From sequence record MN850619.1: 64,000 bases of DNA. The stretch is one strand, 5' to 3'. Within the stretch, counting starts at the first letter, position 1; each line of letters begins with the position of its first letter. A program made the position numbers and the translations under genes. This DNA comes from Escherichia phage finno. Below the pieces are notes generated by a model. It saw nothing but the letters and a program-made list of their open reading frames with translations, had not been told where the DNA came from and made no database searches. Shown here piece after piece: positions 1-54,138 of this stretch.

Positions 1-225
1 TTTTGCATAGTCACTAGAAAGCTGCTTAAGGCTATAATTTAAAGGGATTGCATATTTAAAATCGTTACGCTGACAGTTAGGGTTTTTAATAGTCACGCCG
101 CCTTGATGGTCATCTGTAAACTTCCAATTATCAAGATTATGGCTTGCTTCGTAGCAATTTACCGCTTCATAGATAATGGTGAATTTTTCTTTTACAACTT
201 CAAAGGTAGCGTCTACAGTTTTCAT
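1..225 (-). CDS. hypothetical protein, N-terminal part only (gene runs off window start)
   Basis: ATG at 225 on minus strand preceded by GGAGA RBS at the end of a repeated intergenic cassette; frame stays open to position 1. Confidence 0.5.
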   Translation of the reverse strand, partial: MKTVDATFEVVKEKFTIIYEAVNCYEASHNLDNWKFTDDHQGGVTIKNPNCQRNDFKYAIPLNYSLKQLSSDYAK

Positions 226-230
226 TTTTG

Positions 231-318
231 AATCTCCAATTTAGGATTTAGTGGTAAAGCTCTTTATCTGGGGCTTAAGATATCAACTTTTAAGCCCCTT
301 GTAAAGTACTTTATTTGT
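231..318 (-). promoter_or_regulatory. intergenic promoter/stem-loop cassette, copy 1
   Basis: On minus strand reads TTTACA, then GGGGCTTA/TAAGCCCC hairpin, then GGAGA RBS and ATG; near-identical copies at 609-698 and 1079-1168. Confidence 0.5.
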
Positions 319-604
319 TATTTTTCAGCTTTGCATAACTTCTCATTGTACGAATGGGGGATGTTAAGGCTATGCGTCTAATATATGCCTTTTTCGTGTA
401 TACATTTGTCTTCCCGATAGTGCTTACACATGTAAAAAGGTTTATCGGTGAATTTTTTAGCTTCAACTGTTTATCAGCCTTCACGCCCCACCTTACAGCA
501 GATTGTTTTCCGTTGTCAACCACTTTCCCGCATAACTTTTTAGCCATAGCGCGAGCGTCATCACGAGTTTTTGCAGTAATTACAACGTTTTTGATAATAG
601 CCAT
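311..604 (-). CDS. hypothetical protein
   Basis: ORF track 311..619; start moved to ATG at 604 because the track start is a TTG inside the GGAGAA RBS. Confidence 0.55.
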   Translation of the reverse strand: MAIIKNVVITAKTRDDARAMAKKLCGKVVDNGKQSAVRWGVKADKQLKLKNSPINLFTCVSTIGKTNVYTKKAYIRRIALTSPIRTMRSYAKLKNNK

Positions 605-36503: not shown

Positions 36504-36718
36504 CTGTAGAAGATAAATTTAAGAACGCAGTTCTTACAGAAGATGGTGAGCTTGAAACATTCATTCTTCGTGTTGATGGTAAGCTATTCCGGTGTCGTTG
36601 TGGGTCAAACTGTTTCCATAAACCAGATAAAAATGACTTAGAGCTTTACGCATGTAATGCTTGCAATACTTGGTATCACTCAGAGGTTAAAAATGACAAT
36701 TCTGTACAAACAAAATAA
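36500..36718 (+). CDS. small zinc-ribbon protein
   Basis: CRCGSNC and CNACNTW cysteine pairs. Confidence 0.5.
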   Translation: MTVEDKFKNAVLTEDGELETFILRVDGKLFRCRCGSNCFHKPDKNDLELYACNACNTWYHSEVKNDNSVQTK

Positions 36719-37793
36719 AGATGGTTCCTTCAACGTCTGGTCATGCGTTGCTGTAGGTGACAAAGTTATTACAACCTATGGTAAAGAAAATGGCAAAATG
36801 ATGTTTGAAGAGTATACAGCAGAACCTAAAAACATCGGTAAAAAGAATGAGCGTAATGCTGAACAGCAAGCTCTCTTTGAAGTTGCTGCTAAGTATAAAA
36901 AGCAAGTTGACCGTAAAGGTTATGCTTACACAAAAGAGTCTGCACAGAATACTGAGAAGGTAGGTGTACAGCTTGCTCATGATGCTGCAAAGGTTAGCCA
37001 TGCAAAGTATCTGAAGTTCCCTGCTGATGCTCAACCAAAACTGGATGGTGTACGTTGTAGAATTTCAAGAGATGCTGATTCAGTTAGCTTCACGGCTTAT
37101 TCTCGTGAGAATACTGTTTACAACGTTCCAGCAGAACTAATCCCAGATTTGCTTTTGTTGCTTAAATTACATCCACAAGTTGAAGACTTTGATGGTGAGA
37201 TTTATGCTCATGGTTGGGACTTAGAAGATATTGTATCTATGATTAAGAATGCTGACAATCCAGACCGTCACCTTCTTAAATTCTACTGGTATGATATCTG
37301 TGACAATTCAAAATCTTGGCCTGAGCGTCGTGAAGTTATTGATAACTCACCTATTGTTGAGCTTGGGGATACCTGTAGAGTTGTTCCTGTGCAGACTATC
37401 CGTGTAAATTCTTGGGAAGAGTTTGATGAAGCTCATGATAAGTGGGTTGAAGCTAAGTTTGAAGGTGCAATGTACCGTTCAATCTCTGAAGACTCCCTCT
37501 ATGAGTGTTGTCACCGTTCATACTTCTTGATTAAGCACAAGAAGATGCACACTGAAGAGTTTAAAGTGACTGGTGTAAAGACTGATAAACGTGGGCATGG
37601 TAAGTTCGTTGTAGAGACTCTTCCTAACGTCTTTGTAGATGTCTCATGGAAGACCACTCATGAGAAGAAACAGTATCTTGCTGAGCATCCTGAAGAGTTT
37701 ATCGGGAAACCTTTGACGGTTCAGTTCCAGAAGATGACTCGTAAGGGTTCTTTACAGTTCCCTGTCGGGCTAGTTATTAGGGATTATGAGTAA
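36693..37793 (+). CDS. ATP-dependent DNA ligase
   Basis: Adenylation motif I KLDGVR; size matches T7-type ligases; start set to ATG at 36693 with GAGG RBS. Confidence 0.8.
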   Translation: MTILYKQNKDGSFNVWSCVAVGDKVITTYGKENGKMMFEEYTAEPKNIGKKNERNAEQQALFEVAAKYKKQVDRKGYAYTKESAQNTEKVGVQLAHDAAKVSHAKYLKFPADAQPKLDGVRCRISRDADSVSFTAYSRENTVYNVPAELIPDLLLLLKLHPQVEDFDGEIYAHGWDLEDIVSMIKNADNPDRHLLKFYWYDICDNSKSWPERREVIDNSPIVELGDTCRVVPVQTIRVNSWEEFDEAHDKWVEAKFEGAMYRSISEDSLYECCHRSYFLIKHKKMHTEEFKVTGVKTDKRGHGKFVVETLPNVFVDVSWKTTHEKKQYLAEHPEEFIGKPLTVQFQKMTRKGSLQFPVGLVIRDYE

Positions 37794-37796
37794 ACT

Positions 37797-37943
37797 ATGT
37801 TAAGTACAATCATTCTGTTTGCATTAGTTATCTTTGTGTTGTCTTACATCACAAGTAAGCTTTTGAACACATCCTTTGCAATGGGTTTCTTGTTCACAAT
37901 CTTCTGTTTTGCAACACATATAGCTATCAGGGCTTTTATATAA
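37797..37943 (+). CDS. small membrane protein with two hydrophobic helices (48 aa, not in ORF track)
   Basis: Hand translation MLSTIILFALVIFVLSYITSKLLNTSFAMGFLFTIFCFATHIAIRAFI. Confidence 0.35.
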   Translation: MLSTIILFALVIFVLSYITSKLLNTSFAMGFLFTIFCFATHIAIRAFI

Positions 37944-37949
37944 AAGTTG

Positions 37950-37977
37950 TTGACATAGAAAATATGGTGAGTATACT
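37950..37977 (+). promoter_or_regulatory. sigma70-type promoter
   Basis: TTGACA, 16 nt spacer, TATACT; the -10 lies in a stem GGTGAGTA...TACTCACC. Confidence 0.55.
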
Positions 37978-38225
37978 GAGCAGCATAAACCAACGGGTAC
38001 TCACCAGCATCACTTAAGAGTCTTCTAAAAGGGTTTTTAAGTCATGTATTGCACGGTAAGGTGATGTGAAGTCTGGTCTGGCATGGTGTAGTCTGGTATG
38101 GAAGGATGGCAGTAGCCTTATAAAAAATCTGCCAAATAAGCTATAAAATCTGTTGACAAGTCAGGTGTTATAGCTTATTTTTATACTCAATGTAATACAA
38201 AATTTAATATAGCTTTGAGGTCATT

Positions 38226-38609
38226 ATGAAAAAGATTTTATTAGCTGCTGCAATGGTTATGGCAATGAATTTACCAGTCAATGCAACAGAACTTCCAAAT
38301 GTGGACTTATCAGGTGTTCCAGAAGATACTTGCCAGATTGTAAAAGGTGTTGCTCTAGCTAATGGTGAGCTACTTAAACCAATCTCTGAAGAATCTTTGA
38401 CAGAGATGACTGATAAGGTGACTGACTACCAGTATCGTGTTCTTGCAGAGTATTTCCTGCAATCTGCAAATATTAAAGAGAAGCACCATGATGATATTGA
38501 TGTACAGGCGATGCTCAACCACCGTATCCAGTTTAAAGAAGATTTGATGCAAAAAGCTATGTATGGTGTTGAGTATTTCTTAGAAAACAGAAGCTGCACA
38601 GGTATTTGA
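38226..38609 (+). CDS. secreted/periplasmic protein
   Basis: Signal peptide MKKILLAAAMVMAMNLPVNA; GAGG RBS. Confidence 0.6.
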   Translation: MKKILLAAAMVMAMNLPVNATELPNVDLSGVPEDTCQIVKGVALANGELLKPISEESLTEMTDKVTDYQYRVLAEYFLQSANIKEKHHDDIDVQAMLNHRIQFKEDLMQKAMYGVEYFLENRSCTGI

Positions 38610-38610
38610 T

Positions 38611-38823
38611 ATGGCTCTTAAAAAGTTACATCCCAGAAGCGGTTATGGTAAGATAATTGATGATACAGACGGCTTTACAGTCTTTACAGTCATCTGTCAA
38701 GATGATTCACAGATTGAAAAGGCTCTTGATGATTATCTTAACGATGAACGTGAAAAGGTTAGGGCTACAAACATAGATTCATTGATTGACACTTCACGCA
38801 AACGGAAGAAGAAAGATGAATGA
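38611..38823 (+). CDS. hypothetical protein
   Basis: 70 aa ORF. Confidence 0.5.
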   Translation: MALKKLHPRSGYGKIIDDTDGFTVFTVICQDDSQIEKALDDYLNDEREKVRATNIDSLIDTSRKRKKKDE

Positions 38824-39115
38824 GGTTTTTGACCCTTATGCCCCACAAGATGATTGGGAGGCTGATAGAGAGGCTGAAATGGAGAGTTATATTTGTCCAA
38901 TGGATGTAGACGAGATGAGAGATTTCGTTGCACATCGTTTTAAGAGAGAGATTAAATCCAGAGGTCTTTCTCAAGAGCAAGTTGCTAAAATTTGTGGTAT
39001 CTCTCAAGCTCGTGTATCCAACATAATCCACCTCACTGGGAATGTCTCTCTTGAGTATATGTTGGGAGTCTGTGAAAAATTTGGTGTTAATTTTAATTTA
39101 AGGTTGGCAGATTAA
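38816..39115 (+). CDS. helix-turn-helix DNA-binding protein
   Basis: EQVAKICGISQARVSNII resembles an HTH recognition helix; start set to ATG at 38816. Confidence 0.5.
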   Translation: MNEVFDPYAPQDDWEADREAEMESYICPMDVDEMRDFVAHRFKREIKSRGLSQEQVAKICGISQARVSNIIHLTGNVSLEYMLGVCEKFGVNFNLRLAD

Positions 39116-41711: not shown

Positions 41712-41756
41712 ACAAAAAAGGCTCCCGTAAAAAGGAGCCTTAAAATTTTATTTTTC
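41712..41756. terminator. bidirectional rho-independent terminator between convergent blocks
   Basis: AAGGCTCC-CGTAAAA-AGGAGCCTT hairpin flanked by A-run and TTTTATTTTT. Confidence 0.75.
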
Positions 41757-44971: not shown

Positions 44972-46120
44972 TTAAGCTGTTCTCTGCCATACATACAATA
45001 CGAAGGATGGCTGTTCAACGCTAAATGCTTGACCAGAACCAGTTGTGCCAGTTGTGCCAGAGTGCGAATGCTCACCTGCTCCGGTTACTGTTACTGTTGC
45101 TGAGTGGTTGTGGGAACCAATTGCAACAGAATGGCTGTGAGCACCAATCCCAACTGTGTGATTATGCGCACCAATTGCTACAGAGTGAGCGTGGTTGTTA
45201 GCTGTTGTCAGCGTAGCTCTTGGGTCATAGCTTGCCCCCTCAACTGATAAACCTCTCCAACCACCATCAGCATAGCCACGATTAATGAATGTTGTTTGTG
45301 TTAAACCAGAAGCACTGGTTGTTCTGTTACCATAGTCATAAGTAGATACAGTCTTTGTTCCATAATCAAACGTTGTAGTCCCTTTAGTACCGTAGTCAAA
45401 AGCACTGATAGAGGCCGTTGCACCGTGTGTGTGACCACCACCAGTGACGTATACTGAGTGAGTATGTGCAGGAATGTTGTTAACTGTCAGTGCAGTAGTC
45501 TGTGAACCAAACGTTGAACCAACTGGCCTAGAAGCACTATCATAACCTACAAGTGCTCTTCCTTTTGAAACTAACTCCCAAGTACCTCCACAAATTAAAT
45601 ATGTAGAAGGGTTTGCAGGATTCATAGAGAGATGGATAGTACCTACTGGATAAGAAGCCTGAACAGCCTTGTACAAGTTATTTACTGCTCTTGCTGTAGC
45701 ATACTTATCTGCATCCTCATTATAAAGGTTAGATGTCACCCAGTTCTGAACATTACTCAGTCCAACCTGTGCCTTAGTGGTATTGTGTGGGTTGCTCTTA
45801 TCATCAATATGCTGTTGAATAAGATTATTAACCTCTTCTGAAGACATAATTTGTAGATTTGCTCTTGCCTCAGCTACATTAACAATGTCTGATAAGTTAT
45901 TTTCAGCAACTAACTGGAGAGCATTAATAACGTTATCTAAACCAATTTGTGTCTTAGTAACACCATGAGGGTTATTTCTTAGGCTTGAGTGTGGAGCAAG
46001 TAATTGCTCAAGAGTACATCTCTTATCCTCGATACCCTGTTTAAGATGGAAGATATCACTAAGGTCAATTGGTAAGGCTGCTTGAGGCAAGGCACTAATT
46101 TGAATTTCACCTACTGCCAT
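44972..46120 (-). CDS. tail fibre protein with His-box C-terminal domain
   Basis: 382 aa; FDYGTK repeats and HxH repeats; C-terminus LYVWQRTA similar to the neighbouring fibre. Confidence 0.7.
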   Translation of the reverse strand: MAVGEIQISALPQAALPIDLSDIFHLKQGIEDKRCTLEQLLAPHSSLRNNPHGVTKTQIGLDNVINALQLVAENNLSDIVNVAEARANLQIMSSEEVNNLIQQHIDDKSNPHNTTKAQVGLSNVQNWVTSNLYNEDADKYATARAVNNLYKAVQASYPVGTIHLSMNPANPSTYLICGGTWELVSKGRALVGYDSASRPVGSTFGSQTTALTVNNIPAHTHSVYVTGGGHTHGATASISAFDYGTKGTTTFDYGTKTVSTYDYGNRTTSASGLTQTTFINRGYADGGWRGLSVEGASYDPRATLTTANNHAHSVAIGAHNHTVGIGAHSHSVAIGSHNHSATVTVTGAGEHSHSGTTGTTGSGQAFSVEQPSFVLYVWQRTA

Positions 46121-46122
46121 TA

Positions 46123-54138
<8,016 letters not shown>

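What the first reader, a model, noticed from the sequence alone, without database searches (positions are those of the whole stretch)
37944..38225. About 280 nt non-coding stretch after a strong promoter: candidate structured leader or small RNA
A near-consensus promoter (TTGACA-16-TATACT, 37950-37977) is followed by about 240 nt with no ORF of meaningful length before the next gene. The -10 lies within a stem GGTGAGTA...TACTCACC, and the downstream sequence has GGT-rich direct repeats (GTCTGGTCTGG, GTCTGGTATGG). No tRNA-like T-loop is apparent.
Basis: seen in the sequence. Interest (0 to 1): 0.45.

Follow-up and report, generated by a model that had tools for sequence, protein, structure and literature searches.

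The report
Orphan VIPR guide RNA targeting vipr
The non-coding stretch is a gene for a recently described kind of phage guide RNA (a VIPR "vrRNA"); this Felix O1-type phage has lost the protein that uses such guides, and its one remaining guide is written to recognise that protein's own gene in rival phages.

Summary
Promoter P1 (37950-37977) is followed by about 240 nt without a meaningful ORF, and the "GGT-rich direct repeats" are the key feature. They form a 12-unit period-5 array (GGYNN, 38040-38099) ending in a conserved 35-nt pseudoknot tail (38100-38134). This matches the vrRNA of VIPR systems (bioRxiv 10.64898/2026.04.26.720920). It sits at the same locus, with the same tail, as the last vrRNA of the model phage SUSP1.

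The window is a Felixounavirus, 98% identical to phage skuden. It lacks vipr and vap, as does the rest of skuden's genome, so the vrRNA is an orphan.

Read with the published one-nucleotide-skip rule, its NN dinucleotides match 22 of 22 positions in the vipr coding sequence of Vipr-carrying relatives (codons 156-166, skipped base at the wobble position). A second orphan guide, in another Vipr-less phage, hits vipr codons 14-22. No guide from a Vipr-carrying phage hits vipr.

My preferred reading is that the RNA is loaded onto a co-infecting rival's Vipr and silences the rival's vipr operon. The main rival reading is a relic of cassette loss. Identity confidence is about 0.93; the trans mechanism about 0.5. 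No RNA data were available.

The parts
37950..37977 (+). Promoter P1 (TTGACA-16-TATACT); predicted start near 37984. In Vipr-carrying relatives the same promoter heads the whole VIPR cassette.
   Evidence: Scores 11/12. Only 2 of 28 positions vary among 11 phages. The identical element lies at L005 904-931, upstream of vrRNA1-vipr-vap.
37966..38005 (.). Its 5' arm overlaps the -10 element and lies upstream of the predicted start. Function unknown.
   Evidence: Read from the sequence. Conserved in all phages aligned, but without compensatory changes, so pairing is untested.
38012..38042 (+). Leader hairpin (13 bp, 4 G-U pairs; ACUUAAGAGUCUU/AGGGUUUUUAAGU). Copies of it separate successive vrRNAs in relatives, and it is the likely recombination site of the vipr-vap deletion. 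One GenBank record annotates it as a terminator.
   Evidence: Predicted by folding. Repeated after type a2 tails in relatives. The window aligns to both L005 896-1001 and L005 2501-2580 across it. ASO1A carries the terminator annotation.
38040..38099 (+). vrRNA repeat tract: 12 pentamers AGTCA TGTAT TGCAC GGTAA GGTGA TGTGA AGTCT GGTCT GGCAT GGTGT AGTCT GGTAT. The guide is the NN series CA AT AC AA GA GA CT CT AT GT CT (AT).
   Evidence: Period-5 phase shown. The NN series matches vipr at 22/22 under the 1-nt-skip rule. Among 11 phages 1 of 22 NN sites varies against 8 of 33 GGY sites, and all Y changes are T<->C.
38100..38134 (+). Invariant 3' tail with an H-type pseudoknot: S1 38102-38105/38116-38119 (AAGG/CCTT); S2 38107-38112/38129-38134 (UGGCAG/CUGCCA).
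   Evidence: On 29 distinct tails of 4 types, 90.8% of cells pair against 25-45% in slid controls, and 9 of 12 pairs show changes on both sides. 0 of 35 positions vary among 11 guide-A phages.
38135..38183 (+). 12-bp perfect inverted repeat AATAAGCTATAA (38135-38146) / TTATAGCTTATT (38168-38179), with an inner 5-bp stem, followed by a U-run. Putative terminator of the vrRNA transcript; could also be an operator over P2.
   Evidence: Found. Present after every type-b tail. Function inferred.
38153..38181 (+). Promoter P2 (TTGACA-17-TATTTT) for the 127-aa gene at 38226. Its -35 element sits in the loop of the inverted repeat.
   Evidence: Scores 10/12. Annotated as a promoter in ASO1A. Conserved.

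Best explanation
The region is a gene for a VIPR guide RNA (vrRNA) of the SUSP1 clade (type II).

Shown:
- P1 is followed by a leader hairpin, 12 GGYNN repeats, a pseudoknot tail and a terminator-like hairpin.
- The element sits at the same locus, with the same tail, as the last of the four vrRNAs of phage SUSP1.
- This phage has no vipr and no vap. Relatives carry them between P1 and this array. So this is an orphan guide left at the junction of a vipr-vap deletion.
- Read by the published code (NN pairs, one target base skipped), the guide specifies vipr codons 156-166.

Inferred mechanism:
- The RNA is made early from P1 and trimmed to about 100 nt (about 38040-38140).
- It cannot act alone. 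When the phage shares a cell with a Vipr-carrying Felixounavirus, the rival's Vipr protomers assemble on it, one per repeat, starting at the pseudoknot.
- The filament binds the rival's vipr gene and blocks transcription of vipr-vap and the vrRNAs downstream. That turns the rival's own system against itself.

I put the identity as a vrRNA at about 0.93 and the trans anti-vipr function at about 0.5.
For: Architecture
- Thirty Felixounavirus loci carry 1-5 such arrays at this site. Flanks are 90-98% identical while the NN positions differ freely.
- The published vrRNA definition is 9-16 YNNGG repeats plus an invariant pseudoknot tail, with one vrRNA upstream and three downstream of vipr-vap in SUSP1.
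- The tail pseudoknot covaries.

The partner protein in relatives
- The 195-aa gene is 97.9% identical to the SUSP1 gene.
- It carries the residues named in the cryo-EM paper at the same numbers.
- It models as a Csm3/Cas7-like RAMP (pLDDT 93.5; Foldseek E 6.5e-5).

Orphan status
- No Vipr or Vap by tblastn or by a 120-sequence HMM, in the window or in the remainder of skuden's genome.

The code, re-derived here
- 21 of 74 guides match E. coli satellites at >=0.90 with skip 1. None do with skip 0, 2 or 3. The null maximum is 0.79.

The target
- The window guide matches vipr at 22/22. The shuffled-guide maximum is 19/24 and the chance expectation is about 5e-8.
- All 21 vipr genes checked score 19-22/22.
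- The exact target pattern occurs in IMG/VR and in the metagenome collection only inside vipr.
- The unmatched 3'-most unit is normally unmatched in guide-satellite pairs: mean 0.83 of 2 over 41 pairs.

Hints of function
- A second orphan guide (L009) hits vipr nt 40-66 on the antisense strand at 18/18.
- Anti-vipr guides occur in 5 of 12 Vipr-less loci and in none of about 20 Vipr-carrying loci (p=0.004).
- NN plus tail vary at 1 of 57 sites against 30 of 219 elsewhere in the intergenic region (p=0.005).
- The one NN change (38078 C->T in BPS17L1, Seyj1-1 and DE17) matches the TTG allele of vipr Leu163.
- In vipr, 8 of 15 variable codon-position-1/2 sites fall in the 40 positions these two guides read (p=2e-5; window-pair null 0.0015).
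- Use of Vipr in trans has a precedent: a satellite carries a vrRNA, yet no vipr exists in 5,426 E. coli genomes.
Against: - There are no expression data for this phage. The ends of the RNA are inferred from SUSP1.
- Five of the 12 units lack the first G (AGT or TGT/TGC). Such units are common in arrays that match satellites, but competence of this particular RNA is untested.
- NN conservation on its own is not significant: 1/22 against 22/186, p=0.27.
- The guide-A phages are closely related, so counts of phages are not independent events.
- The target-site variability test is post hoc.
- No guide from a Vipr-carrying phage hits this window (best 18/22). The benefit of disarming a rival's VIPR is therefore unclear.
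- Other orphan guides (ASO1A, and the last arrays of humlepung and ECOH1) have no identified target.
Confidence: 0.6

Rival explanations
1. Inert relic. A guide against vipr arose or was acquired in a Vipr-carrying ancestor and self-silenced the system. The vipr-vap cassette was then lost by recombination between the repeated inter-vrRNA hairpins. The orphan is still transcribed from P1 but does nothing.
For: - The deletion junction lies in a sequence repeated on both sides of vipr-vap.
- About half of the phages with this locus lack vipr: 230 records carry the region, about 118 Ounavirinae records carry vipr.
- Some Vipr-less phages share arrays with Vipr-carrying ones, for example L024 with L005, which points to recent loss.
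- The window array is the most degenerate type, with 7 canonical GG units.
- NN conservation alone is not significant.
Against: - The tail (0/35 variable) and the NN positions (1/22) are the least variable parts of the intergenic region, while leader, hairpin and GGY positions drift.
- The single NN change tracks a vipr allele.
- Two different anti-vipr guides exist, at two different vipr sites.
- vipr shows excess non-wobble variation exactly at those two sites.
- P1 stays near-consensus.
- The published search found no self-targeting guides in Vipr-carrying loci.
Confidence: 0.28
2. Guide-independent decoy. The orphan RNA soaks up a rival's (or a satellite helper's) Vipr into useless filaments, as RNA anti-CRISPRs (Racr) do with Cas proteins. 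The match to vipr would be incidental or secondary.
For: - A strong promoter, an intact tail and conserved G2/Y3 positions would suffice for Vipr loading (protein-RNA contacts).
- Several orphan guides have no identifiable target.
Against: A 22/22 in-frame match to vipr, expected about 5e-8 times by chance, plus a second independent vipr-directed guide, are not expected of a pure sponge.
Confidence: 0.08
3. Cis-acting leader. The P1 transcript is a structured 5' leader, attenuator or protein-binding array (TRAP-like triplets with 2-nt spacers) that controls read-through into the 127-aa gene and the downstream early genes.
For: - Hairpins followed by U-runs lie at 38012-38042 and 38135-38183.
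- The whole fold has z = -2.7.
- The period-5 triplet pattern resembles a TRAP site (my knowledge of the B. subtilis trp leader).
Against: - The downstream gene has its own conserved promoter P2.
- Identical modules occur in 1-5 tandem copies and also upstream of vipr, unrelated to that gene.
- The NN positions carry sequence information that matches external targets, which a cis protein-binding array would not.
Confidence: 0.03
4. DNA-level element: a replication origin or R-loop former (promoter, G-rich non-template strand, AT-rich tract), a G2N3 quadruplex, or merely a recombination hotspot.
For: - The array is G-rich on the + strand, follows a strong promoter and precedes an AT-rich segment.
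- Gene cassettes come and go at this site.
Against: - GC skew in the window simply follows gene orientation, with no inflection at 38 kb.
- Conservation of T/C at position 3 and of a covarying RNA pseudoknot is not explained by DNA structure.
- The published biochemistry shows the RNA is the active species.
Confidence: 0.01

Closest known systems
vrRNA of the Escherichia phage SUSP1 VIPR system (type II), bioRxiv 10.64898/2026.04.26.720920 and 10.64898/2026.04.26.720927
   Same: - Same genomic slot: between the DNA ligase gene and the 127-aa gene.
- Same P1 promoter.
- Same GGY/NN pentamer tract of 9-16 units.
- Same type-b tail, GGAAGGATGGCAGTAGCC..., as SUSP1's fourth vrRNA.
- Same pseudoknot.
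- Same one-nucleotide-skip relation to a coding target, with the skipped base at the wobble position.
   Different: - No vipr and no vap anywhere in the window or in the nearest complete genome.
- A single array instead of four.
- The target is the vipr gene itself rather than the E. coli satellite hit by 18 of 20 SUSP1-clade guides.
- Orphan vrRNAs in Vipr-less phages, and Felix O1, are not mentioned in the text of that paper.
vrRNAs carried by the SUSP1/Felixounavirus satellite in E. coli chromosomes
   Same: These are guide genes without a cognate vipr in the same element, so they must borrow Vipr in trans. One example is L040 4567-4651 (- strand), with a type-c tail. vipr is absent from all 5,426 E. 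coli genomes.
   Different: They sit in an integrated satellite rather than the helper-type phage. They are reported to target other satellites, not vipr.
P. fulva-clade vrRNAs that target other VIPR systems (same preprint)
   Same: A guide aimed at a VIPR locus, read as a defensive use.
   Different: Those guides belong to complete systems with their own Vipr. Here the attacker has none and would have to use the victim's protein.
Viral mini-CRISPR arrays, solitary repeat units and RNA anti-CRISPRs (Racr); recalled from my own knowledge, not tested here
   Same: A virus carries only the RNA half of an RNA-guided system and exploits, or poisons, effector proteins made by someone else.
   Different: A different protein family branch and different RNA architecture. 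Racrs lack a functional guide, whereas this RNA has a perfect one.
TRAP-binding (G/U)AG repeats of the Bacillus trp leader (my own knowledge)
   Same: About 11 conserved triplets separated by 2-nt spacers, bound one per protein subunit.
   Different: In TRAP sites the spacers carry no information and the RNA acts in cis. Here the spacers are the message and the RNA acts in trans on DNA.

Membership tests
vrRNA (VIPR guide RNA, SUSP1 clade) | Tract of 9-16 tandem pentamers with conserved GGY and variable NN | tested here: met
   There are 12 in-phase units at 38040-38099. Seven have GG, and all 12 keep G at position 2 and T/C at position 3. Across phages the NN positions differ while the phase is kept.
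vrRNA (VIPR guide RNA, SUSP1 clade) | Invariant ~40-nt 3' tail folding into a pseudoknot | tested here: met
   S1 is 100% paired with 3 of 4 pairs covarying. S2 is 86% paired with 6 of 8 covarying. Overall pairing is 90.8% against 25-45% in slid controls. Caveat: the covariation rests on four tail types, so on few independent events.
vrRNA (VIPR guide RNA, SUSP1 clade) | NN series matches a natural DNA target with exactly one skipped base per unit, usually the codon wobble position | tested here: met
   22/22 on vipr codons 156-166 with the skipped base at the wobble position. The rule itself was re-derived on 74 guides against 9 satellites.
vrRNA (VIPR guide RNA, SUSP1 clade) | Same locus and tail as an experimentally detected vrRNA | tested here: met
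   Same locus and same tail as the fourth array of phiSUSP1 (L019 offset 1857). The paper reports four ~100-nt transcripts there.
vrRNA (VIPR guide RNA, SUSP1 clade) | Expressed as a ~100-nt RNA that co-purifies with Vipr | not testable with these tools
   No RNA-seq is available for this phage. P1 is near-consensus and conserved.
Complete VIPR system (type II) | Encodes Vipr, a ~20-kDa RAMP-fold protein | tested here: not met
   tblastn finds nothing better than E = 3.4 in the window, and the profile HMM nothing better than E = 0.78. The remaining 24 kb of the 98%-identical phage skuden is also negative. The relatives' protein is confirmed as a RAMP.
Complete VIPR system (type II) | Encodes the accessory protein Vap1 next to vipr | tested here: not met
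   The 146-aa protein of relatives (L005 1912-2352) has no match in the window or in L032.
Any curated RNA family (Rfam 15) | Covariance-model match | tested here: not met
   No match at gathering thresholds over the whole window. No match at E<=1 over 37800-38400.
Rho-independent terminator or attenuator leader | G+C-rich stem directly followed by a U-tract, controlling the downstream gene | tested here: inconclusive
   The consensus scan finds none in 37944-38225. Folding gives two A/U-rich hairpins with U-runs. The downstream gene has its own promoter P2.

The most novel reading that the evidence does not exclude
Felix O1-type phages that have shed their own VIPR system keep a "Trojan" guide RNA. 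It hijacks the Vipr protein of a co-infecting relative and directs it to silence its own gene. This would be an RNA-only counter-weapon against an RNA-guided system. Both sides would be co-evolving: guide alleles CT/TT against vipr Leu163 CTG/TTG, and excess non-wobble change in vipr at the two sites read by orphan guides.
Probability: 0.45. Interest if true: 0.85.

Novelty: new variant of a known kind. Interest (0 to 1): 0.74.

Why it matters
VIPR was described only in 2026, as a minimal RNA-guided DNA-binding system proposed to predate CRISPR. This result places a vrRNA in Felix O1, the classical Salmonella typing phage, and in about 49 related GenBank genomes that lack the protein partner.

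The guide points at the partner's own gene. If it works in trans, it is the first example of an anti-VIPR strategy and of guide theft between rival phages. It would also explain why roughly half of the Felixounaviruses carry the cassette and half do not.

The idea is directly testable with reagents that already exist: SUSP1 Vipr, GFP reporters and mixed infections. The target-site polymorphism gives a natural read-out of an arms race. In practical terms, every Felixounavirus annotation currently leaves these RNAs unannotated or labels them as a "repeat region" or a "terminator".

Tried and rejected
- Rfam at gathering and at permissive thresholds: nothing.
- tRNA/tmRNA scan: nothing.
- Dispersed copies of the region in the window: none beyond the internal inverted repeat.
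- Other period-5 arrays in the window or in the rest of skuden: none. The 46046-46071 signal is 4/10, which is chance level.
- Ideas held before the literature hit and then dropped: a TRAP-like RNA-binding array, an R-loop or replication origin, a two-tier G-quadruplex, Chi-like or primase sites, and minus-strand boxA-like CTCTTA motifs. GC skew tracks gene orientation only. The information content of the NN positions is explained by guide function.
- Window guide against nine E. coli satellites: best 0.75, the same as the null.
- Exact search with the 9-unit core pattern: 1 viral and 42 genome hits, all in unrelated taxa and at about the chance rate.
- vipr-vap DNA in 5,426 E. coli genomes: none, so the target is not a resident element of E. 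coli. Salmonella genomes could not be searched.
- Guides of Vipr-carrying phages against this window: nothing above 18/22.
- Targets for the ASO1A-type and some other orphan guides: none found.
- P0036 turned out to be UniProt X0TDZ5, not the paper's seed X1U2U4, so that link was not used.
- The Felix O1 genome paper does not mention the promoter or the repeats.
- Supplementary data of the VIPR preprint are not held.

Full report
**Context.** The window is a Felixounavirus (Felix O1-like myovirus). The region 37700-38400 is 98% identical to Escherichia phage skuden and matches 252 phage records, almost all of them Ounavirinae. The finding lies between the DNA ligase gene (36657-37793) with a 48-aa hydrophobic ORF (37797-37943) and a 127-aa signal-peptide gene (38226-38609). 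All of these are on the + strand, inside a + strand block of about 10 kb.

**Observation.**
- P1 is TTGACA-16-TATACT at 37950-37977. It is the best sigma-70 match in 7 kb.
- The longest ORF up to 38225 is 26 aa.
- The stem is 37966-37973 paired with 37998-38005.
- The two 11-mers are at 38071-38081 and 38091-38101.
- A second promoter, P2 (38153-38181), was missed. Its -35 element sits in the loop of a perfect 12-bp inverted repeat, 38135-38146 with 38168-38179.
- Rfam and tRNA scans are empty.

**What the repeats are.**
- Aligning the intergenic space of six relatives showed highly conserved flanks around a segment that diverges fast but keeps GGT every five bases. The whole module is duplicated once or twice in some phages.
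- In 30 loci (GenBank plus IMG/VR) the site carries 1-5 such arrays of 9-19 units, always on the + strand. Each ends in one of four conserved tails.
- A period of 5 rules out coding sequence.
- In the window the array is unique: 7 of 10 GG in phase, against at most 4-5 elsewhere or in shuffles.
- A literature search for pentanucleotide repeats found the explanation. VIPR systems (bioRxiv 10.64898/2026.04.26.720920) consist of Vipr, a ~20-kDa RAMP-fold protein, an accessory protein Vap, and ~100-nt vrRNAs. A vrRNA is 9-16 YNNGG repeats plus an invariant pseudoknotted tail. The NN dinucleotides read double-stranded DNA, skipping one base per unit.
- The model phage SUSP1 is an Ounavirinae member.

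**Tying the window to that system.**
- Relatives such as VpaE1_ev035 have two extra genes between the arrays.
- The first of these, 195 aa, is 97.9% identical to the phiSUSP1 gene.
- It carries H17, K33, R39, K82, G87, K88, R138, D177, W178 and R179 at the numbers used in the companion cryo-EM preprint.
- It models with pLDDT 93.5, and its best PDB matches are all Csm3/Cas7 RAMPs.
The last array has the window's tail.
- The pseudoknot is supported by covariation among tail types. S1 is AAGG/CCTT, GTAG/CTAC or GTGG/CCAC. S2 is UGGCAG/CUGCCA, UGGUAG/CUACCA, AGUCUCA/UGAGACU or AAUCGGA/UUCGAUU. Pairing is 90.8% against 25-45% in slid controls, and 9 of 12 pairs change on both sides.
- In the window, S1 is 38102-38105/38116-38119 and S2 is 38107-38112/38129-38134.

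**Orphan status.**
- Neither Vipr nor Vap is encoded in the window (tblastn and a profile built from 120 homologues).
- Neither is encoded in the 24 kb of skuden that the window does not cover.
- The window aligns to the part of VpaE1_ev035 upstream of vipr through the leader hairpin, and to the downstream part from the same repeated hairpin onward. This is the signature of a deletion between repeats.
- In the Vipr-carrying phage, P1 and P2 are the only strong promoters of the cassette. P1 is therefore the operon promoter, now driving only this RNA.
- Folding of the predicted P1 transcript gives the leader hairpin (38012-38042), stem S2, and a long hairpin with a U-run at 38135-38183.

**Target.**
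- I first re-derived the code. An E. coli satellite was found through homology to the window's tape-measure and baseplate genes. It is present in 476-485 of 5,426 genomes.
- Against nine copies of this satellite, 21 of 74 Felixounavirus guides match at >=0.90 with a 1-nt skip. None match with skips of 0, 2 or 3. The null maximum is 0.79.
- The window guide does not hit the satellites (0.75). Exact scans with its 9-unit core pattern gave only chance hits in unrelated taxa.
- Scored against phage loci, it matches 22 of 22 NN positions in vipr. The site GCAAATCACCAAAGAGGAACTTCTGATGGTTCT encodes QITKEELLMVL (codons 156-166), on the sense strand, with the skipped base at the wobble position.
- The best shuffled guide reached 19/24, and the chance expectation is about 5e-8.
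- All 21 vipr genes examined score 19-22.
- The exact 22-base pattern occurs in IMG/VR and in the metagenome collection only in Felixounavirus-sized contigs, inside vipr.
- The one unmatched unit, the 3'-most GGTAT, is normally unmatched in guide-satellite pairs.
- vipr-vap is absent from E. coli chromosomes and plasmids.

**Is the orphan doing anything?** Several observations suggest so, none of them decisive.
- A second orphan guide, in L009 (probably phage EC6), matches vipr nt 40-66 on the antisense strand at 18/18.
- In my sample, anti-vipr guides occur in 5 of 12 Vipr-less loci and in none of about 20 Vipr-carrying loci (p=0.004). The four guide-A loci are close relatives, so these are not independent events.
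- About 49 GenBank records share guide A. Eight more that I fetched are all Vipr-less at this locus.
- Among 11 guide-A phages the tail varies at 0/35 positions and the NN positions at 1/22. GGY positions vary at 8/33 (all position-3 changes are T<->C), the leader at 6/34 and the hairpin at 6/33.
- NN plus tail against the rest gives p=0.005, but NN alone is not significant, p=0.27.
- The single NN change (38078 C->T) converts unit CT to TT. That matches the TTG allele of vipr Leu163, which 5 of 21 vipr genes carry in an otherwise perfect context.
- In vipr, 8 of 15 variable codon-position-1/2 sites lie in the 40 positions read by the two orphan guides (Fisher p=2e-5; 0.0015 against all window pairs). 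This test is post hoc.
- Trans use of Vipr has a precedent: a satellite (L040) carries a vrRNA with a type-c tail although E. coli has no vipr.

**Interpretation.**
- Shown: this is a vrRNA gene of the SUSP1 clade. It is orphaned, and its guide specifies vipr.
- Inferred: it is expressed from P1, trimmed to about 100 nt, loaded onto a co-infecting relative's Vipr, and used to repress that relative's vipr-vap operon. VIPR acts as a transcriptional roadblock on either strand. Filament assembly starts at the 3' pseudoknot.
- Co-infection is plausible. Vipr-less and Vipr-carrying phages were isolated on the same hosts, for example skuden and pinkbiff/ekra/fjerdesal on MG1655.
- Main rival: an inert relic, possibly left after self-targeting drove loss of the cassette.
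- What the Vipr-less phage would gain is unclear. No rival guide targets this window.

**Novelty.** The RNA class is known (2026 preprints). Three points are not in the text of those papers: the orphan state in Vipr-less phages including Felix O1, the anti-vipr specificity, and the signs of guide-target co-variation. I rate this a new variant of a known kind.

Noticed in passing
window 37797-37943: A 48-aa strongly hydrophobic ORF (MLSTIILFALVIFVLSYITSKLL...) lies between the ligase gene and P1. It is present in the window, skuden, ASO1A and humlepung, and absent in FelixO1 and ECOH1, where P1 directly follows the ligase stop codon.
   Followed up: partly
window 38135-38181: The -35 element of P2 sits in the loop of a perfect 12-bp inverted repeat, with an inner TGAC..GTCA palindrome. 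It could be an operator as well as a terminator. An HTH regulator gene lies three genes downstream, at 38786-39115.
   Followed up: no
window 220-325, 595-705, 1069-1166: Sequences of about 100 bp are repeated between small minus-strand genes. Several further copies lie in the adjacent part of skuden (L032 20843-20948, 21634-21733, 23500-23591, 23843-23950). They probably correspond to the promoter-bearing direct repeats mentioned in the Felix O1 genome paper.
   Followed up: no
L033-L041 (E. coli chromosomes): A satellite of about 11 kb is present in 476-485 of 5,426 complete E. coli genomes. It carries two serine recombinases, an HNH endonuclease, and tape-measure and baseplate genes up to 89% identical to parts of the window's 50000-53900. 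It integrates at yciI/tonB, yecN/yecD or ymdF/wrbA. With first and last units dropped, 41 Felixounavirus guides match it at >=0.88.
   Followed up: partly
L040 4567-4651 (- strand): One satellite copy carries its own 13-unit vrRNA with a type-c tail and a GC-rich terminator. Its best match among the sequences held is 23/26 to a REP-like sequence, TAGGCCTGATAAGCGTAGCGCATCAGGCA. Significance not assessed.
   Followed up: no
L097 (Escherichia phage EcF-vB, PV683228.1): Its copy of guide A has an exact 20-nt deletion, four whole units, in phase (window 38070-38089). This suggests that arrays change length by whole repeats. The record is marked UNVERIFIED.
   Followed up: no
GenBank GU169904.1 and MG065668.1: Records named Staphylococcus phage SA1 (147 kb) and Campylobacter phage A126 contain this Felixounavirus locus at 88-98% identity, and SA1 also contains vipr at 99.5%. 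These records are probably contaminated or chimeric.
   Followed up: no
L001, L002, L006 (ASO1A, humlepung, ECOH1 last arrays): Other orphan guides in Vipr-less phages have no target among satellites, phage loci or the window (best 0.68-0.77). Yet two further arrays of humlepung and ECOH1 still match the satellite at 0.88-0.94, although these phages have no Vipr.
   Followed up: partly
window 41718-41741: A GC-rich hairpin (AAGGCTCC...GGAGCCTT) flanked by T-runs on both strands marks the convergent end of the + strand gene block. It is a likely bidirectional terminator.
   Followed up: no
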